A DNA stretch of 64,000 nucleotides, taken from NCBI RefSeq assembly GCF_048403405.1, contig NZ_CP183129.1; one strand, written 5' to 3'. The position numbers are program-made. Below are positions 21,001 through 27,000 of the stretch, piece by piece (position 1 is the first letter of the stretch; every line of letters starts with the position of its first letter). The DNA comes from Escherichia coli (lineage in GTDB: Bacteria > Pseudomonadota > Gammaproteobacteria > Enterobacterales > Enterobacteriaceae).

Positions 21001-24000
21001 TCCAGTTCAGGCAGAATGTCACGGTACAGGGCTTCATACTCTGCATCCCTGTCCCGGCTCTCGCCCACCCCGGGCAGGTCAGTGATAACCATGCTGTAAC
21101 CGTGACCACTCAGACGGAAGCGCTGCACTTCCCGGGTGCCGGCGTGAACATCACTGACCGGTGTGACCTCCCCCTGAAACAGGGCATTACAGAGTGAAGA
21201 TTTACCGGCCCCGCTTTTACCCATAATGCCAATCACGGGCTCGTGACGGGTGAGTTTGCGCAGATGTTCCAGGATGTGACGGGAAAGCGAGTAAGGCAGG
21301 GAGGAGAGCGGTTTTTCAATTGCCTCAATGGCATCAGACGGATTCATACATGTATTCCCGGTGAAAAAAGACAAAACCCCGCACACCGGAAAGGTGGCGG
21401 GGGATCCACGGAGATAATATCTGTCTGAAATTGTTTGGAATCGATGGGGATGTTGAGTATTAACATGAAGGAGGGCAGGAGTTATCCGTTATTGGGTGAT
21501 ATCCTTCCATGAAAATACGCGGTTATTGTTAAACAGCAGGCTGATTACTCCGTAAAGGAGAAAAATATTCATCTTGCAGCCTGATTATCAGGTGTGTTTA
21601 TGTTTACTGAGGTGAGTATTTTTCAGTATATTGTCGGGGCAGTCAGTGGGAGATATTAAATTTACGTTTAGAGTTATCTTGCTTCTGCTGTGTATTTTTA
21701 TAAGAGTGCGCACGTAATGATATCTGTTGATACCATGTTGTTAAGTGTTTCCCTTCCGGGTCATGCGTACTTGCAAAATGGCATCTGAATCGATCACGGT
21801 TTGGCCAAACCGTGATCGAATAGAGAGGAATACGCACGTAATGATTAAATGCTTTTGTTACACCATTCTTCCGGCATGAATATTTATCCAGTTCCCTTTT
21901 TTATTTGTGTAGTGATACTGTCGGAATAGCGTTCAGTAATGTGAAGTGTCCTGTAAAAAAACTTTAATAAATGTGTCATCCTGGTCAGGAAATATCTGCT
22001 GAGATATTATTAGTTGGTGGTGTTTTTACTGAGTAATAGCTGGCTTTTAATTCCTGAACTGAAATACTGTCGCTCGTCAGGGTTTAATTAAAACTGGATG
22101 ATGATGTGAAAATGAAGGCTGGTTTTTGTGTTTGTCGAAGAAGTGTTATTTTAATCCATTCTCATCATTGGCTGGCGATTATACAGAAGTATTTGAAGAA
22201 AAAATGTTGCATTTTATCTGTGTCAGCAGGGAGGAAGTATTTTATTGATGTATCAGTATTAAATGGTTTTTGTTATTTATAAAAATGTCATCCTGTCCAT
22301 AGAATATTGTACTCAGCATTCAGTGCAGGAACTGTCATCTTCTTTATTTTATTCTTCTTCAGGAGGGCAGTTTTCTGAAAGCGTTACTCCGGGGAAACTG
22401 TTTATGTTTATTCCCGGCAGGAAACCCGTACCTGCAATACCCTGGATGATGCTTTTTGCTGGTACGTTGTTGTGTGAAAATTAATCAACACGTGTGTTCC
22501 GGAGAGCGCCCGTAGACGCACAGATTCATTCTAACATTCTTTAGCGACAAAATACCGAATGGTTATTATTTAATCTGAAAATCGACAGAAATTTTTATCC
22601 TGTATTGATTCTGCTGCTATTTTTGCTATTAGTAGCAATAGTTGCGGTACTTTATGTTCTGTGTGTTGTGAGGTCATTATGCCATACTTTCAGTATCCTG
22701 ATGAGTTTCCCCTGAGCTCGCTGCCTCCACTCATTCGTGATGCCGTTATTGAAGCTCAGCAAATCACGCAGGCTCCCCTGGGGCTTGTGGCAGCATCTGC
22801 CCTGGGCGCTGTTTCACTTGTCTGCCAGAATCTGATTGATGTCTGCAGACTGAATACACTGCGGGGGCCGGTTTCTCTTTTCTTACTGACGCTTGCTGAG
22901 TCCGGAGAACGAAAAACCGCAGTGGACAAATTATTAATGGAGCCCCTGTACCAGCAGGAGATGCTGTTATATTCCAGACACAAAAATGAACTGACGACAT
23001 GGAAAAATAAGGAAGAGCTTTTAAAGGCGCAGAAAAAAGCATTGTTGTCAAAACTGAATAAAGAACTCCGCAAAGGCGCGGATGAGTCAGAAACGCTCAG
23101 ACAACTGGAAGCGCTTCAGAAAAACAGAGGGGAAAAACCTGTAAGATATAAATTCATTTTTAATGATGCCACGACAGCAGCAATTAAAGATCAGCTTTGT
23201 GGTCAGTGGCGTTCAGTGGGTATCATGTCTGATGAAGCCGGTATAATATTTGATGGGTATACCCTGTCTGAGCTGCCTTTTATTAACAAAATGTGGGATG
23301 GCTCCGTATTGTCGGTGGACAGAAAGAATGAACCCGAACAGATGATTGAAAATGCCAGAATGACATTATCCCTCATGGTACAACCCGGTCTTTTTGACCG
23401 ATATATGGAGCGAAAAGGTTCTGTTGCCAGGGACAGTGGTTTTCTTGCCCGTTGTCTAATCAGTAAACCTGCCACCACGCAGGGGAAACGCTTTATTAAC
23501 GGAGCTGTGACCCCGGGAGGATCATTAACGGCATTTCATGAACGATTAATGGAACTGGCCAGAGGCAGTATTGAAAAATCCAGTAAGGATGAACGTTATT
23601 GTCTGCATTTTTCTCCTGAAGCGCAAAAAATATTTATTGATCACTATAATGTTCTGGAGCAGGATTTGTCTCCTTCCGGACCCTTAAGCCAGTTTCGGGG
23701 GCATGTTTCAAAAAAAACAGAAAACATTGCGAGAATTGCTGCGTTATTGCAGTATTTCAGTCAGGGTGAAGGGAAAATCTCTGCCGATATCATGACGTCT
23801 GCTGTCGTAATAAGTTCGTGGTACACAGATGAATATAAAAAATTATTTGCGTTACCTGATGAATCTGAACTGCAGCTGCAGGACGCCCGGGAGCTGCTCG
23901 ACTGGCTCATTGAGGAGTGCCGCGGAGAATGCCCGCCCCGTGTCAGGAAAAATTATATTCTCCAGTGTGGCCCGGGCCGGTTCCGGAACAGGAAAAAGCT

Positions 24001-27000
24001 GAACGTCCTGCTGAACATTCTTGCATCTCAACTCAGGCTCTCTGTCGTGCAGGAAGGAAAAACCACCTATGTCCTGCTTTCCGAAATAAACAATATCACG
24101 CTGCCTGAACTGAATGCGTGCTACAGCCAGAAACTGATAAGATGGCATGAGCAATCCTTTGGCTTATAATGTTCCCTGTTGCTGAGACGGATTATTCAGT
24201 GGTGGTATCGCAGTATGCCCGTCACCCCCGCTTCTGCATGAGGGTGACGGAGGAAAAGTAAGTGTGCGGAGGCCCGGGAGCGTTATGAATCAACAGGCGT
24301 ATAACAGGTACTCGTCAATCATCAGTTCCAGCTCGCGCTTTTCCCGTTTGCGCGCCACAGCCCAGTTTTCAAGCTCTGCATGTGATTTATGCTTTAACTC
24401 TTCAGTCCAGGGCTGCATGGAGTGGGCACACATCAGATCATACCAGCACAGCCATATCAGCGTGTGGTAGAGATCACGATCGTCGAAACGCCGGAGCAGG
24501 CTGTTCAGCCTGTTTGCCAGCCGGTTTTCACCCAGACGATGTAGCTCACTGAGTAAAACGCCGCCCAGATTAAAATGTGTAAGCAGCATGATTTCATGGG
24601 TCTGAATGCTGGTCATTAACCCTTCCTGAATGGCAGGAATGAACGGTGGTGTTCCCGGGTTGACGACCTGATAGAGTCCCTGTGGTGCCACTGAGATGAT
24701 GGTGCCTTTTTCTGGCAGAAAAAAGTGGGCCAGGGTCAGGCGGTGATAACCATGAAGATGCGGAGCCCCCATTCCATGAGCGACGATAAGCCTCGTCACG
24801 TTTGTCATCCATTTCTGATGCTGGATGAGCAGCAGCTCACACCGGTTTTCAAGTTTTTGCATAATATTCTCTCCTTTAGCGCGCAGCAAAATGCCTCCGG
24901 GGGCCGGATCATGCCTTTGCTGCGGTTGAACGGATAACGGTCAGGAATTACGGACGGGACTGTGCAATACGCGCCTGCAGCCAGGCTTCCACTTCACTTT
25001 TCAGCCATCGGGAACTGCGGCCCAGCTTGATGGGGGCCGGAAAGGCCCCATCCCTGATGAGTTTGTAAAACCACTTATCGGTCAGGCCAGTCAGTTGAGT
25101 GATAAACGCCATGTCGACCATCTGGTCATCCATCAGTGAAACTGGGGTGGTCATGAGAATGTTCCTCCGGATGTTGTTAATCTCAACCGGCGTTGGTGAT
25201 GAAAACAACGCACCACCTTCACCGGCATAACAACCGGGGAGAAACGTAAAAAATAATCGGGAATGTGACCGTCAGGAGATAAACGGGGGGATTGCGGTGG
25301 CTGAGCCGTACCGGTATGTCGGGTGGTTGTTGCGAAACGATGCTTCCGCACGCGATAAAGGAGGGAGGACTTTCGTGAGACAAGGGGAAAACTAGCGTTC
25401 TGATAATTGCAGAGTTGTTTTTGAAGGCGGTTGTGGTATATCAGCCTGTGACCTGTGGGCAGGCGACAGTTATCACTGGTGGGATAAGACTGTCTGATTG
25501 GTATTATAAATATATAAGAGAGATCAAACACATGAGTTCATATATGTGAAATAAATCTGTGAGTGTGATCAGCAGACCAGTCTACCCAGTAGCAACAGAT
25601 TGCGTTGTACTCACAGGGTTATCCCTGATAACTGGCGTATAACCTGCGTACATAAAACGTACCTGCAATGCACCTGAACAGAGTGCATTAAGCATCCGCC
25701 TGAGCGGTAAACGTATCCGATCTGGTGAGTGACAGTCTGAGAGCATTCTCAGTAATCGCCCCCTTGTATCCTGGAAATTGGTTAAGAGCGATTAGATTTG
25801 GCAAGGTGTATGCATCCAGCAGCTTAACACCTCAGCTAACTGGCTGGTTACCTTCAGGTTGTCGCAATGGCATCGGACATCCGGTGTCGGATAACTAAAC
25901 GTAGCGTTAAGGCGATATTGCTGAGAGACCGGTTAAGTGGTGGCACGGGAGTAATGAGTTTGGGGAGGGTACCAGAATGCCAGTCAGGTGCGGTATGCTG
26001 GCAGTATCACGTTGATTGCAGCATAAAGTAACGAGAGACGAATGGAAGTTAAAACCAGAGCAGTTCCGTCGTTGTTCATCCCGGGAGACGCTGGAAAAAG
26101 TGATTACCCGCACACGTTATAAACTTACCCCTGCGGAGCTGGAAGCCTTTAACTCTGCGGTCGATCACCGGCTGGCAGAACTGACAATGAACAAACTTTA
26201 CGATCGCGTGCCGGCTTCCGTCTGGAAATATGTCACCTGAATCTTGAATCCGCGCTACGATGACTCTGGTGTTATCTGTGCACCGGAAGATCGGGAACAT
26301 TAAGCAGTATAACGGCAACAAAGAATTCGAAATCAAAAGGGAATGGTGTACAGAGGGGCAGGCGTTCAGGCATTACCGGCCTGTATCTTCTGAAGGGGAC
26401 TCGTATTTGTCGGGGCTGAGTATTCCGCTCGATTCGATCACGGATTGGCAGAAACCTGACTGTGATTGATTCAGGTACCATTTTGCAGGGATCCGGTGCG
26501 TTACTGTCTGGCACAACAAACGCAGCGGGTCGCTCTGCCCCGCCGACTCCTGATAATCCCTCCCCTGTAACCTACTGCAACAGTACAAATACACTGACGC
26601 CTGAAACGGTAACCAGAATCAGCACCAGCAGTAACGTCAGTAAACAGAGCAGACGATCGGTCTTCCGGTAATAACCGAAGGGGTCGACAGCACCACAATA
26701 CGGGCAACATACTGTATTATGAGTAATTGCGTTACCACAGTCCCTGCACTTCTTTTTGCGTATCACGATCGCTCCCTCTCCACGCCTTATCCGTAACCTG
26801 TTTTTTACATTAAAAAAACAACGCCGGGAATTCAATCGTCAGTCCGGCGATGACCGTTCGGGTTATCACAGAGTGCCTGAGACAGTGTCCTGCCGGAGGT
26901 CACCTCAGGGGCTCTGCGCATTTTTTACGACGTGGTTATTCCGTATGAACCATACGGAGATTTAACCATGACCTACAAATACAACCCCTTCTGGCAGCAA

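What the first reader, a model, noticed from the sequence alone, without database searches (positions are those of the whole stretch)
22679..25154. Divergent DUF3987 / unknown / AlpA module resembling the regulatory core of a CP4-57- or P4-like element
An AlpA regulator and an unknown 190-aa gene on the minus strand lie next to a plus-strand 496-aa DUF3987-type protein. In remembered CP4-57 architecture alpA and yfjI sit next to the integrase, so this may be the remnant left-end control region of a second integrative element fused into the island. No integrase is seen in the window.
Basis: partly seen in the sequence, partly recalled or inferred. Interest (0 to 1): 0.4.

Follow-up and report, generated by a model that had tools for sequence, protein, structure and literature searches.

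The report
Conserved AlpA control module of pheV island
The three genes are real, but they are part of the ordinary conserved backbone of a well-known E. coli virulence island inserted at the pheV tRNA gene, not the leftover of a second mobile element.

Summary
yfjI (DUF3987, 496 aa, 22679-24169 +), an unknown 190-aa gene (24290-24862 -) and alpA (68 aa, 24948-25154 -) sit exactly where stated. yfjI and the 190-aa gene converge; they do not diverge.

The window is 100% identical over this region to E. coli ATCC 25922 and related O6 strains. It lies inside the described PAI-CFT073-pheV-type island. The "second fused element" reading is not supported:
- The island has only two pheV att copies: pheV itself, and an 18/19-nt copy 362-381 bp left of the window.
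- There is no integrase remnant in the window.
- The same block (Zn-ribbon, Gp2/YfjJ-like, hha, alpA, unknown gene, variable slot, GTPase-Ag43-CbtA-DUF4942) recurs in other E. coli islands.
- In compact relatives from over 15 other genera, alpA and the unknown gene sit beside the GTPase-to-toxin module. In two of them a pheV-type integrase lies 9 kb away.

alpA plus the 190-aa gene is the conserved unit. YfjI, an MCM-like SF6 helicase family member, is an optional occupant of a variable slot.

Most likely AlpA is the island's excision factor and activator. This is inferred, not shown.

Side finds: a conserved hairpin in the alpA leader that buries the ribosome-binding site, and a 67-bp MITE-like insertion.

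The parts
22679..24169 (+). yfjI: YfjI-family DUF3987 protein, 496 aa. Predicted MCM-like (SF6) AAA+ helicase. It is an optional occupant of the variable slot between the alpA pair and the GTPase gene.
   Evidence: Pfam DUF3987 E 1.2e-94 and PHROG 2373 'DNA helicase'. It is 52% identical to K-12 YfjI. AESGERK[ST] and MSDEAG are invariant in 16 family members. It was absent from all 29 loci of other genera and is replaced by other genes in L008, L009 and L010.
24290..24862 (-). Unknown 190-aa gene, the conserved downstream partner of alpA. It evolves fast.
24948..25154 (-). alpA: 68-aa AlpA/excisionase-type winged-HTH protein. Putative recombination directionality factor and activator of the island.
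   Evidence: Phage_AlpA E 1.4e-8 and HTH_17. PHROG 66/2790 'excisionase and transcriptional regulator'. Weak matches to PDB 8c3t (AlpA family) and TorI 1z4h. It is 66-81% identical across genera.
25161..25245 (-). Conserved alpA 5' leader: a nested long hairpin whose basal stem contains the Shine-Dalgarno GGAGG (about 25164-25168). An invariant TTTTTTAC lies just upstream (about 25246-25253).
   Evidence: 31-locus alignment. MFE is -37.2 kcal/mol with z -3.45. All 31 leaders have negative z, mean -2.9, and the SD is at least partly paired in 30 of 31. Formal covariation is weak or inconclusive. No Rfam match.
21348..22678 (.). AT-rich 1.3-kb non-coding gap between the divergent GTPase and yfjI genes.
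   Evidence: GC 0.41-0.46. It is conserved at 89-94% with L006 and L007 apart from a 67-bp insertion. Promoter-like sites are not enriched over shuffles.
20475..21347 (-). YeeP/YfjP-type GTPase gene, the first gene of the GTPase-isrC-Ag43-...-CbtA-DUF4942 backbone module.
   Evidence: MMR_HSR1 E 7e-15. It is 49% identical to K-12 YfjP. RefSeq annotation.
26016..26240 (+). hha paralogue (haemolysin expression modulator family), divergent from alpA.
   Evidence: Pfam HHA E 7.6e-27. RefSeq annotates it as hha.
26968..27537 (+). Inovirus Gp2 / YagK-YfjJ family gene, a Rep-like protein and the counterpart of K-12 yfjJ.
   Evidence: YagK_YfjJ_C E 1.2e-47. REP_ORF2-G2P E 4e-5, which is below the Pfam cutoff. 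It is 36% identical to YfjJ.
27703..28122 (+). DUF7828/Zn-ribbon gene, a backbone partner of the Gp2-family gene. The second copy is truncated by IS66.
   Evidence: DUF7828 E 4.9e-31 and Zn_ribbon_11. RefSeq annotation.

Best explanation
The three genes belong to the conserved backbone at the attR-proximal end of a single pheV-integrated island (PAI-CFT073-pheV type, about 103 kb between the two att copies). This island family is widespread in Enterobacterales.

Layout. In island orientation the backbone reads: tRNA - P4-type integrase - cargo slot - [Zn-ribbon, Gp2/YfjJ-like Rep-like gene, (hha)] - [alpA, 190-aa gene] - small variable slot - [GTPase, Ag43, DUF932, ArdB/KlcA antirestriction, RadC-like JAB, YeeU/CbtA, DUF4942] - attR. 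In this island the cargo slot holds about 75 kb of hly, pap, iha, sat, iuc and nan genes plus IS elements.

How it probably works:
1. alpA and the 190-aa gene form a two-gene operon.
2. AlpA, an excisionase-type winged-helix protein, most likely acts in trans as the recombination directionality factor and/or transcriptional activator that promotes integrase-mediated excision at the two pheV att copies. Characterised relatives that do this are AlpA of CP4-57, Hef of the Yersinia HPI, VefA of VPI-2, and AlpA of GIsul2.
3. Its expression is probably kept low by a stable leader hairpin that occludes the ribosome-binding site.
4. The 190-aa protein is an element-specific partner of unknown biochemistry.
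5. YfjI is an MCM-like (SF6) AAA+ helicase homologue in a variable slot. It may help replicate the excised circle together with the Gp2-like protein, but the backbone does not require it.

Shown: gene identities, synteny, att boundaries, conservation. Inferred: RDF activity, translational repression, the partner role, and the helicase/replication role.
For: Location:
- The window equals NZ_CP009072.1 1674279-1738278 at the focal region.
- pheV and the integrase lie 39 kb beyond the right edge of the window.
- An 18/19-nt copy of the pheV 3' end with its own terminator lies 362-381 bp left of the window. There is no other copy.

Recurrence in E. coli:
- The same block occurs in all six other E. 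coli contexts inspected: L006-L010 plus L011, an E. coli-type contig labelled Collinsella MAG.
- Published work notes that CFT073 serX and pheV islands and AGI-3 (selC) share the agn43-yeeR-irmA region (PMC4807369).

Cross-genus context, from 29 loci:
- alpA is co-directional and upstream of the 190-aa gene in all 28 assessable loci. It is directly adjacent in 26.
- The GTPase..DUF932..ArdB..JAB..YeeU..CbtA..DUF4942 module is next to the pair in 17 loci.
- Gp2 and/or Zn-ribbon genes are present in 15 loci.
- A pheV-type integrase (36% and 69% identical) lies about 9 kb away in L024 and L026. In L026 the genes in between are a type I R-M cargo.

AlpA as an RDF:
- Family matches support it.
- AlpA homologues stimulate excision and are poorly expressed under standard conditions (PMC9376610).
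- VefA works from the middle of VPI-2, far from its integrase (PMC3014918).
- Each PAI of strain 536 was reported to carry a putative cognate RDF (PMC7545054, citing Napolitano 2011).

Leader hairpin.

YfjI:
- DUF3987 is classed as SF6, MCM-like, with a C-terminal wHTH (PMC4889955).
- A PriCT-DUF3987 protein is a Walker A/B-dependent 5'-3' helicase (PMC11724360).
- Conserved P-loop-like and DE motifs are present.
- The AF2 C-terminal segment 395-467 has the winged-helix order H-E-H-H-E-E at pLDDT about 72-86.
Against: - No experiment here shows excision, AlpA binding or YfjI activity.
- alpA is about 77 kb from the integrase in this island. It is only 25% identical to the characterised K-12 AlpA.
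- In E. coli the alpA pair is inverted relative to the GTPase and Gp2 frame when compared with other genera. Some rearrangement history therefore exists, and the island is heavily IS-ridden, so the module could be functionally decayed.
- The YfjI Walker A is non-canonical (GERKT instead of GxGKT). No primase lies next to it, unlike most DUF3987 helicases (PMC4889955). Its AF2 core is low confidence.
- The hairpin's formal covariation is weak. The outer-stem permutation test gave p = 0.052.
- Only 2 of 29 foreign loci showed the integrase within the 10-kb flank.
Confidence: 0.7

Rival explanations
1. This is the remnant control region of a second CP4-57-like integrative element. It inserted in tandem at pheV (or into the island) and later lost its integrase and att site.
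For: In K-12 CP4-57, alpA-yfjI-yfjJ lie next to intA, and homologues of all three are present here. The island is a mosaic with many IS66, IS3 and IS110 copies that could have erased junctions. The alpA pair is inverted in E. coli relative to other genera.
Against: - There are only two pheV att copies and no internal scar.
- There is no integrase fragment.
- An identical arrangement occurs in islands at other sites.
- Compact relatives carry the alpA pair, the GTPase-to-toxin module and a pheV-type integrase in one roughly 20-kb element.
- In this family the cargo slot lies between the integrase and the Gp2/Zn genes, so the distance from int is expected.
Confidence: 0.1
2. yfjI, and possibly the 190-aa gene, are accessory cargo rather than mobility genes. 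They would be a defence, anti-defence or addiction function sitting in a hotspot.
For: The slot between the alpA pair and the GTPase gene is variable. It holds yfjI here, an unrelated 339-aa or 305-aa gene in L008 and L009, and a PDC-S31 candidate defence gene in 536 PAI V. In CP4-57 the equivalent slot holds the abpAB and rnlAB defence systems. The 190-aa gene diverges like an arms-race gene: 36% identity between alleles with flanks about 90% identical.
Against: None of the three proteins matches any PADLOC model. The 190-aa gene is fixed next to alpA across genera, which fits a regulatory partner better than a swappable cargo. DUF3987 proteins characterised so far are replicative helicases (PMC11724360, PMC4889955).
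Confidence: 0.12
3. This is a degenerate phage satellite (P4-like or PICI-like) core: int-alpA-replication genes awaiting a helper phage.
For: AlpA is the hallmark regulator of Gram-negative PICIs and P4-like elements (from my own knowledge of the field). A DUF3987 helicase and a Gp2-like Rep-like protein could form a replication module.
Against: No capsid-redirecting, packaging, psu/sid/delta or primase genes are annotated in 44.6 kb. There is no DNA similarity to 50,697 phage records. The element is about 103 kb, far above satellite size. The conserved partners are antirestriction, RadC and toxin-antitoxin genes, not morphogenesis genes.
Confidence: 0.03

Closest known systems
Cryptic prophage CP4-57 of E. 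coli K-12 (intA-yfjH-alpA-yfjI-yfjJ ... yfjP ... yfjZ/ypjF)
   Same: Both are integrated at a tRNA-like gene with a P4-type integrase. Both carry homologues of AlpA, YfjI, YfjJ and the YfjP GTPase, followed by DUF932, antirestriction, RadC-like, DUF987 and toxin-antitoxin genes. Both have a variable slot just upstream of the GTPase gene.
   Different: In CP4-57, alpA-yfjI-yfjJ are collinear, adjacent to int, and co-directional with the GTPase module. Here alpA is paired with an unrelated 190-aa gene and converges on yfjI. The Gp2/YfjJ-like gene lies on the other side, and int is about 77 kb away. Identities are only 25-52%.
PAI-CFT073-pheV (PAI I CFT073) and PAI V of strain 536, the described pheV pathogenicity islands of uropathogenic E. 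coli
   Same: The gene content and order match: hly, pap, iha, sat, iuc, Ag43, then the kps capsule region (table in PMC7545054). PAI V of 536 has the same alpA - unknown gene - slot - GTPase - Ag43 block.
   Different: Nothing essential differs. The window is this island or a near-identical copy. Published descriptions focus on virulence cargo and, as far as my searches found, do not discuss the alpA pair.
AlpA/Hef/VefA/Rox-type recombination directionality factors of genomic islands
   Same: All are small AlpA-family winged-HTH proteins encoded in a tRNA-associated island with a P4-type integrase. VefA likewise lies mid-island (PMC3014918).
   Different: Activity has not been tested here. 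The sequence is distant from the characterised members. The fixed 190-aa partner and the structured leader were not mentioned in the papers I read on AlpA-family excision factors (VefA, GIsul2) or on E. coli pathogenicity islands.
DUF3987 (SF6, MCM-like) replicative helicases of phages and integrative elements, for example AgaPH
   Same: There is a full-length DUF3987 match, conserved Walker A-like and Walker B motifs, and a predicted C-terminal winged-helix segment (PMC4889955, PMC11724360).
   Different: There is no fused or adjacent AEP/DnaG primase or PriCT domain. The P-loop reads GERK[ST]. The gene is dispensable for the backbone (0 of 29 foreign loci).

Membership tests
Pfam DUF3987 / YfjI family (SF6 helicase-like) | Full-length profile match above the curated cutoff | tested here: met
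   318 bits against a cutoff of 27, covering profile positions 1-363 of 364. PHROG 2373 E 3e-81.
Pfam DUF3987 / YfjI family (SF6 helicase-like) | Walker A and Walker B NTPase motifs | tested here: met
   AESGERK[ST] and MSDEAG are invariant in 16 family members. The Walker A lacks the canonical Gly before Lys and resembles the MCM-type GxxGxxK[ST] pattern. That comparison is from my own knowledge, not a tool result.
Pfam DUF3987 / YfjI family (SF6 helicase-like) | Fused to or adjacent to an AEP or DnaG primase (usual, per PMC4889955) | tested here: not met
   The neighbours are a GTPase, the unknown 190-aa gene, AlpA, Hha and a Gp2-like gene. No primase domain was found.
Pfam DUF3987 / YfjI family (SF6 helicase-like) | ATP-dependent 5'-3' helicase activity | not testable with these tools
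   Shown only for AgaPH (PMC11724360). The AF2 model of the YfjI ATPase core is unreliable (pLDDT below 50 for residues 56-87 and 177-283).
AlpA-family excisionase / RDF (PF05930) | Profile match above cutoff; about 70-aa winged HTH | tested here: met
   34.9 bits against a cutoff of 21, and HTH_17. Excisionase PHROGs. PDB 8c3t and TorI at E 0.002-0.015.
AlpA-family excisionase / RDF (PF05930) | Encoded in the same element as a cognate tyrosine integrase with att repeats | tested here: met
   Integrase next to pheV and an attR copy matching 18 of 19 nt. alpA is about 77 kb from int here and about 9 kb away in L024 and L026.
AlpA-family excisionase / RDF (PF05930) | Stimulates excision or activates int transcription | not testable with these tools
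   Needs attP/attB qPCR with and without alpA.
CP4-57-type element (left-end control region int-alpA-yfjI-yfjJ) | alpA, yfjI and yfjJ collinear and adjacent to the integrase | tested here: not met
   Order and orientation differ. There is no integrase or remnant within the window.
CP4-57-type element (left-end control region int-alpA-yfjI-yfjJ) | Homologues of AlpA, YfjI, YfjJ and YfjP plus the antirestriction/RadC/TA module in one att-bounded island | tested here: met
Second, tandemly fused integrative element | Internal att scar and/or a second integrase (pseudo)gene at the junction | tested here: not met
   No pheV 3'-end copy in the window with up to 3 mismatches. None of at least 18 nt with up to 2 mismatches in the rest of the island. 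No integrase hit by tblastn.
P4-like or PICI phage satellite | Capsid-size or packaging hijack genes (psu/sid/delta, terS/ppi), a primase-helicase, and 10-15 kb size | tested here: not met
   None annotated in 44.6 kb. No similarity to the phage collection. The island is about 103 kb.

The most novel reading that the evidence does not exclude
alpA, its fixed 190-aa partner and the structured alpA leader together form an undescribed control switch shared by a large family of tRNA-associated islands across Enterobacterales. The partner has a confident predicted fold with no detectable relative. In this reading, a roughly 85-nt hairpin keeps the excision factor translationally silent until some signal opens it. 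The fast-evolving partner protein gives each island lineage its own specificity, for example towards its integrase, a helper element or a host factor.
Probability: 0.25. Interest if true: 0.5.

Novelty: already known. Interest (0 to 1): 0.25.

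Why it matters
For the finding as posed, the result is a clarification. A stretch that looked like a relic of a second mobile element is the normal backbone of the pheV virulence island of uropathogenic E. coli. The 'CP4-44-like' and 'CP4-57-like' gene sets are two parts of one widespread island scaffold.

This helps anyone delimiting islands or counting mobile elements. Distance from the integrase is not evidence of a separate element in this family, because the cargo slot lies between int and the control genes.

If the side observations hold, they give a concrete handle on how excision of large virulence islands is kept rare and then triggered. The candidates are a conserved alpA-partner operon and a leader hairpin that buries the ribosome-binding site.

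Tried and rejected
1. Inverted repeats flanking yfjI..hha (arms 21772-21836 and 26417-26487) looked like element ends. They are two copies of a small mobile repeat. The left copy is a 67-bp insertion with a 4-bp CGTA target duplication that is absent from L006 and L007. The repeat is scattered in 2667 of 5426 genomes and on plasmids. Rejected as an att site or boundary.
2. A 32-nt direct repeat in the yfjI upstream gap (D1) has only two copies, and 18 of 100 shuffles do as well. Rejected as iterons.
3. Promoter and terminator scans showed no enrichment over shuffles. Not used.
4. The AF2 model of YfjI was poor (pLDDT 58.5), so no fold search was run on it. Sequence searches of the PDB with YfjI, its family profile, the 190-aa protein and the Gp2-like protein gave nothing meaningful.
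5. The afdb50 fold library was unavailable.
6. The search for related loci with the 15-sequence alignment failed because no stretch was conserved enough. It was rerun with the 5-sequence alignment.
7. RNAalifold on MAFFT alignments of the alpA leader recovered only part of the hairpin, with almost no covariation term. Column-based pair counts were inconclusive because the helix register differs between clades. A partner-permutation test of the outer stem gave p = 0.052. The hairpin is therefore reported as suggestive only. No covariance model was built.
8. No tRNA was found within 10 kb of the foreign loci, so their att sites could not be defined.
9. Literature searches found no functional work on YfjI, YfjJ/YagK or the 190-aa family.

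Full report
**What is there**

The ORF list shows three genes:
- a 496-aa gene on the plus strand (ATG at 22679, stop at 24169);
- a 190-aa gene on the minus strand (24862 down to 24290);
- a 68-aa gene on the minus strand (25154 down to 24948).

These are exactly the coordinates NCBI annotates in E. coli ATCC 25922, to which the 4.6 kb around the finding is 100% identical.

The 496-aa protein matches Pfam DUF3987 over the whole profile (E 1.2e-94). It also matches PHROG 2373, named 'DNA helicase'. The 68-aa protein passes the Phage_AlpA and HTH_17 cutoffs and matches excisionase PHROGs. It weakly matches the solved AlpA-family protein 8c3t and the excisionase TorI. The 190-aa protein matches nothing in Pfam, PHROGs, NCBIfam or PADLOC.

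yfjI and the 190-aa gene converge, with stop codons 120 bp apart. yfjI diverges from the GTPase gene across a 1.3-kb AT-rich gap.

**Where it is**

The window corresponds to NZ_CP009072.1 1674279-1738278. Annotation of the surrounding 160 kb shows, in order:
- tRNA-Phe (pheV) and a tyrosine integrase, 39 kb beyond the right edge of the window;
- hly, pap, iha, sat, iuc/iutA, a sialic-acid cluster and several IS66 copies;
- Zn-ribbon genes, a Gp2/YfjJ-family gene and hha;
- alpA, the 190-aa gene and yfjI;
- a YeeP-type GTPase, the IS102/isrC RNA (Rfam 259.7 bits), Ag43 and IrmA;
- DUF932, an antirestriction gene, a RadC-like JAB gene, DUF987, YeeU/CbtA, DUF4942 and AbiE;
- finally the kps capsule genes.

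This is the published PAI-CFT073-pheV content (PMC7545054). Searching for the pheV 3' end found nothing inside the window. It found one 18/19-nt copy, followed by its own terminator hairpin, at record positions 1673898-1673917. That is 362-381 bp left of the window start. No further copy exists in the sequence between it and pheV. tblastn with two P4-type integrases finds no fragment in the window.

The island is therefore one att-bounded unit of about 103 kb. The finding lies in the 28 kb at its attR end.

**Is it a second element?**

K-12 CP4-57 does have intA-yfjH-alpA-yfjI-yfjJ at its left end and yfjP...toxin at its right end. The window proteins are homologous: YfjI 52%, YfjJ-like 36%, GTPase 49% and AlpA 25% identical.

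In E. coli, the block [Zn-ribbon, Gp2-like, hha | alpA, unknown gene | slot | GTPase, Ag43 ... CbtA ... DUF4942] recurs in the same order and orientation in all six other contexts I opened:
- next to fec/yjhU (L006, L009);
- next to setC (L007);
- in strain EC11 (L008);
- in PAI V of strain 536 (L010);
- in L011, an E. coli-type contig labelled as a Collinsella MAG.

Published work already notes that CFT073 serX and pheV islands and AGI-3 at selC share the agn43 region (PMC4807369).

**Relatives in other genera**

A profile of the 190-aa protein retrieved 29 loci from GTDB species representatives. They include Yersinia, Hafnia, Serratia, Pectobacterium, Brenneria, Photorhabdus, Providencia, Citrobacter, Enterobacter, Kluyvera, Salmonella diarizonae and Mixta. 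tblastn mapping of backbone proteins gave these counts:

| Feature | Count |
|---|---|
| alpA upstream of the 190-aa gene, same strand | 28 of 28 assessable loci |
| alpA directly adjacent | 26 (a Zn-ribbon gene lies between in 2) |
| GTPase-DUF932-ArdB-JAB-YeeU-CbtA-DUF4942 module next to the pair | 17 of 29 |
| Gp2 and/or Zn-ribbon genes nearby on the same strand | 15 of 29 |
| YfjI | 0 of 29 |

A pheV-type integrase lies about 9 kb beyond the pair in Pectobacterium (36% identical) and Photorhabdus (69% identical). In Photorhabdus the intervening genes are a type I restriction-modification system.

The family's natural layout is therefore int - cargo - Gp2/Zn - alpA pair - GTPase-to-toxin module. 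The window's island is the same layout with a much enlarged cargo slot. One difference remains. In these genera alpA diverges from the GTPase gene, whereas in E. coli the alpA pair is flipped and points toward it.

**The three genes are not one unit**

alpA and the 190-aa gene form the conserved unit. They are 85 nt apart, the second gene has a good AAGGAG ribosome-binding site, and no terminator-like site lies between them.

The gene between this pair and the GTPase gene varies among E. coli islands:
- yfjI on the opposite strand (the window, L006, L007);
- an unrelated 339-aa gene annotated RepB (L008, L011);
- a 305-aa gene (L009);
- in 536, remnants plus a DUF2971 protein that matches the PADLOC candidate defence system PDC-S31.

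In CP4-57 the corresponding position holds abpAB and rnlAB.

**YfjI**

The family is widespread in Enterobacterales at 50-55% identity. It keeps AESGERK[ST] and MSDEAG invariant. Published work places DUF3987 in helicase superfamily 6, distantly related to MCM, usually next to a primase and with a C-terminal winged helix (PMC4889955). A PriCT-DUF3987 protein is a Walker-motif-dependent 5'-3' helicase (PMC11724360).

Here there is no primase. The AF2 model is poor in the ATPase core (mean pLDDT 58.5). Residues 395-467 do have the winged-helix order of secondary-structure elements at pLDDT about 72-86. I did not run fold searches on this model.

**The 190-aa protein**

An exhaustive profile search found only 126 clusters at 50% identity, most of them fragments. 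Alleles at the same position in different E. coli islands share about 36% identity, while the flanking DNA is about 90% identical. Across genera AlpA stays at 66-81% identity while this protein drops to 34-39%.

**Likely mechanism**

By analogy, AlpA is the island's recombination directionality factor and/or activator of int. The precedents are:
- K-12 AlpA and Hef;
- AlpA of GIsul2, whose overexpression increases circular intermediates and which appears poorly expressed under standard conditions (PMC9376610);
- VefA of VPI-2, which works from the middle of its island (PMC3014918).

It has also been reported that each PAI of strain 536 carries a putative cognate RDF (PMC7545054). This step is inferred. 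Nothing here measures excision.

**A possible brake on alpA expression**

I noticed that the roughly 130 nt upstream of alpA is about as conserved across genera as the coding sequence. It has an invariant TTTTTTAC and four CCGG-containing boxes, the last of which is the Shine-Dalgarno sequence. Each leader folds on its own into the same nested hairpin with the Shine-Dalgarno in the basal stem. The window leader gives -37.2 kcal/mol and z -3.45. All 31 leaders have negative z (mean -2.9), and the SD is at least partly paired in 30.

Different clades use different complementary sequences:
- GUUUCUCC:GGAGGAAC (E. coli);
- GUAUCUCC:GGAGAUAC;
- UCCAUUG:CAAUGGA.

Column-based covariation is weak because the boxes are nearly invariant and the registers differ. 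A partner-permutation test of the outer stem gave p = 0.052. Rfam has no match there. I rate this as suggestive, not established.

**Verdict**

The finding is real but ordinary. It is an already sequenced and annotated part of a described pathogenicity island. The proposed 'second fused element' is not supported by att, integrase or comparative evidence.

The CP4-57 resemblance is genuine at the level of a shared island scaffold. Membership in the CP4-57 left-end arrangement fails on order, orientation and adjacency to int. P4-like or PICI satellites are excluded by gene content, size and lack of any phage DNA similarity.

What remains open, and mildly interesting, is the conserved alpA-partner operon with its structured leader.

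Noticed in passing
window 25161-25245 (minus strand), with TTTTTTAC at about 25246-25253: The alpA 5' leader is conserved across 31 loci from more than 15 genera. In each it folds into the same nested hairpin with the Shine-Dalgarno sequence in the basal stem (window -37.2 kcal/mol, z -3.45; mean z -2.9 over 31). Different clades use different complementary stems. Formal covariation is weak, and there is no Rfam family.
   Followed up: partly
window 21770-21836; second diverged copy in inverted orientation at about 26417-26490: A 67-bp MITE-like element carries an internal perfect palindrome (TCGATCACGGTTTGG/CCAAACCGTGATCGA). It is inserted with a 4-bp CGTA target duplication, and L006 and L007 show the empty site. 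Related copies occur in 2667 of 5426 E. coli genomes (median 2, up to 50 per genome) and on plasmids. None is annotated.
   Followed up: partly
outside the window: NZ_CP009072.1 1673898-1673917 (L002 33898-33918), 362-381 bp left of window position 1: An 18/19-nt copy of the pheV 3' end is followed by its own terminator hairpin. This is the attR end of the island. It lies between the AbiE genes and the IS110 remnant and kps cluster, so the capsule genes are outside the att-bounded unit.
   Followed up: yes
window 24290-24862 compared with L006 16883-17485, L009 8370-8972 and L010 19371-19979: The 190-aa gene behaves like an allelic cassette. Alleles are about 36% identical in protein, yet they sit between flanks that are about 90% identical in DNA. 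One database variant (P0003) is mosaic over residues 38-62.
   Followed up: partly
slot between the alpA pair and the GTPase gene: window 21348-24289; L008 5848-8618; L009 6252-8464; L010 15488-18999: The content of this slot varies among E. coli islands. It holds yfjI, a 339-aa gene annotated RepB with no Pfam match, a 305-aa unknown gene, or in 536 PAI V a protein matching PADLOC candidate defence system PDC-S31 (E 1e-81) plus an AAA ATPase remnant.
   Followed up: partly
L012-L039 compared with the window: In other genera alpA and its partner are divergent from the GTPase module and co-directional with the Gp2/Zn genes. In all seven E. coli contexts (the window plus six other loci, one of them a contig labelled Collinsella MAG) the pair is flipped, and hha plus a 65-aa Zn-ribbon-like ORF lie between alpA and the Gp2-like gene.
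   Followed up: partly
L026 (Photorhabdus asymbiotica) 2765-20566: This is a compact relative of the island family: DUF4942...GTPase | alpA - partner - Gp2 remnant - type I R-M (fused HsdM/S, AAA_13, HsdR) - pheV-type integrase (69% identical). It is a defence-carrying version of the same scaffold.
   Followed up: partly
window 20166-20371 (minus strand): Full-length IS102 (isrC) small RNA between the GTPase gene and Ag43 (Rfam RF00124, 259.7 bits against a gathering score of 46). This is a known feature of the CP4-44-type module.
   Followed up: no
window 31752-31842 (plus strand): Partial AfaR small-RNA match, well below the gathering score (46.9 against 100 bits; model positions 26-121 of 234). 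It lies near the start of the sialic-acid gene cluster. It is probably a fragment or a distant relative.
   Followed up: no
window 1-17000 compared with L001: The window is not base-for-base ATCC 25922 outside the focal region. Coordinates of CbtA and its neighbours are offset by 3 bp relative to the record, and one base differs in the right MITE copy. The source is therefore a very close relative rather than that exact assembly.
   Followed up: no
NZ_CP070041.1 (hit H1): In strain FDAARGOS_1293 an IS21 (istA/istB) is inserted within the otherwise identical 4.6-kb region. This shows ongoing IS disruption of the module.
   Followed up: no
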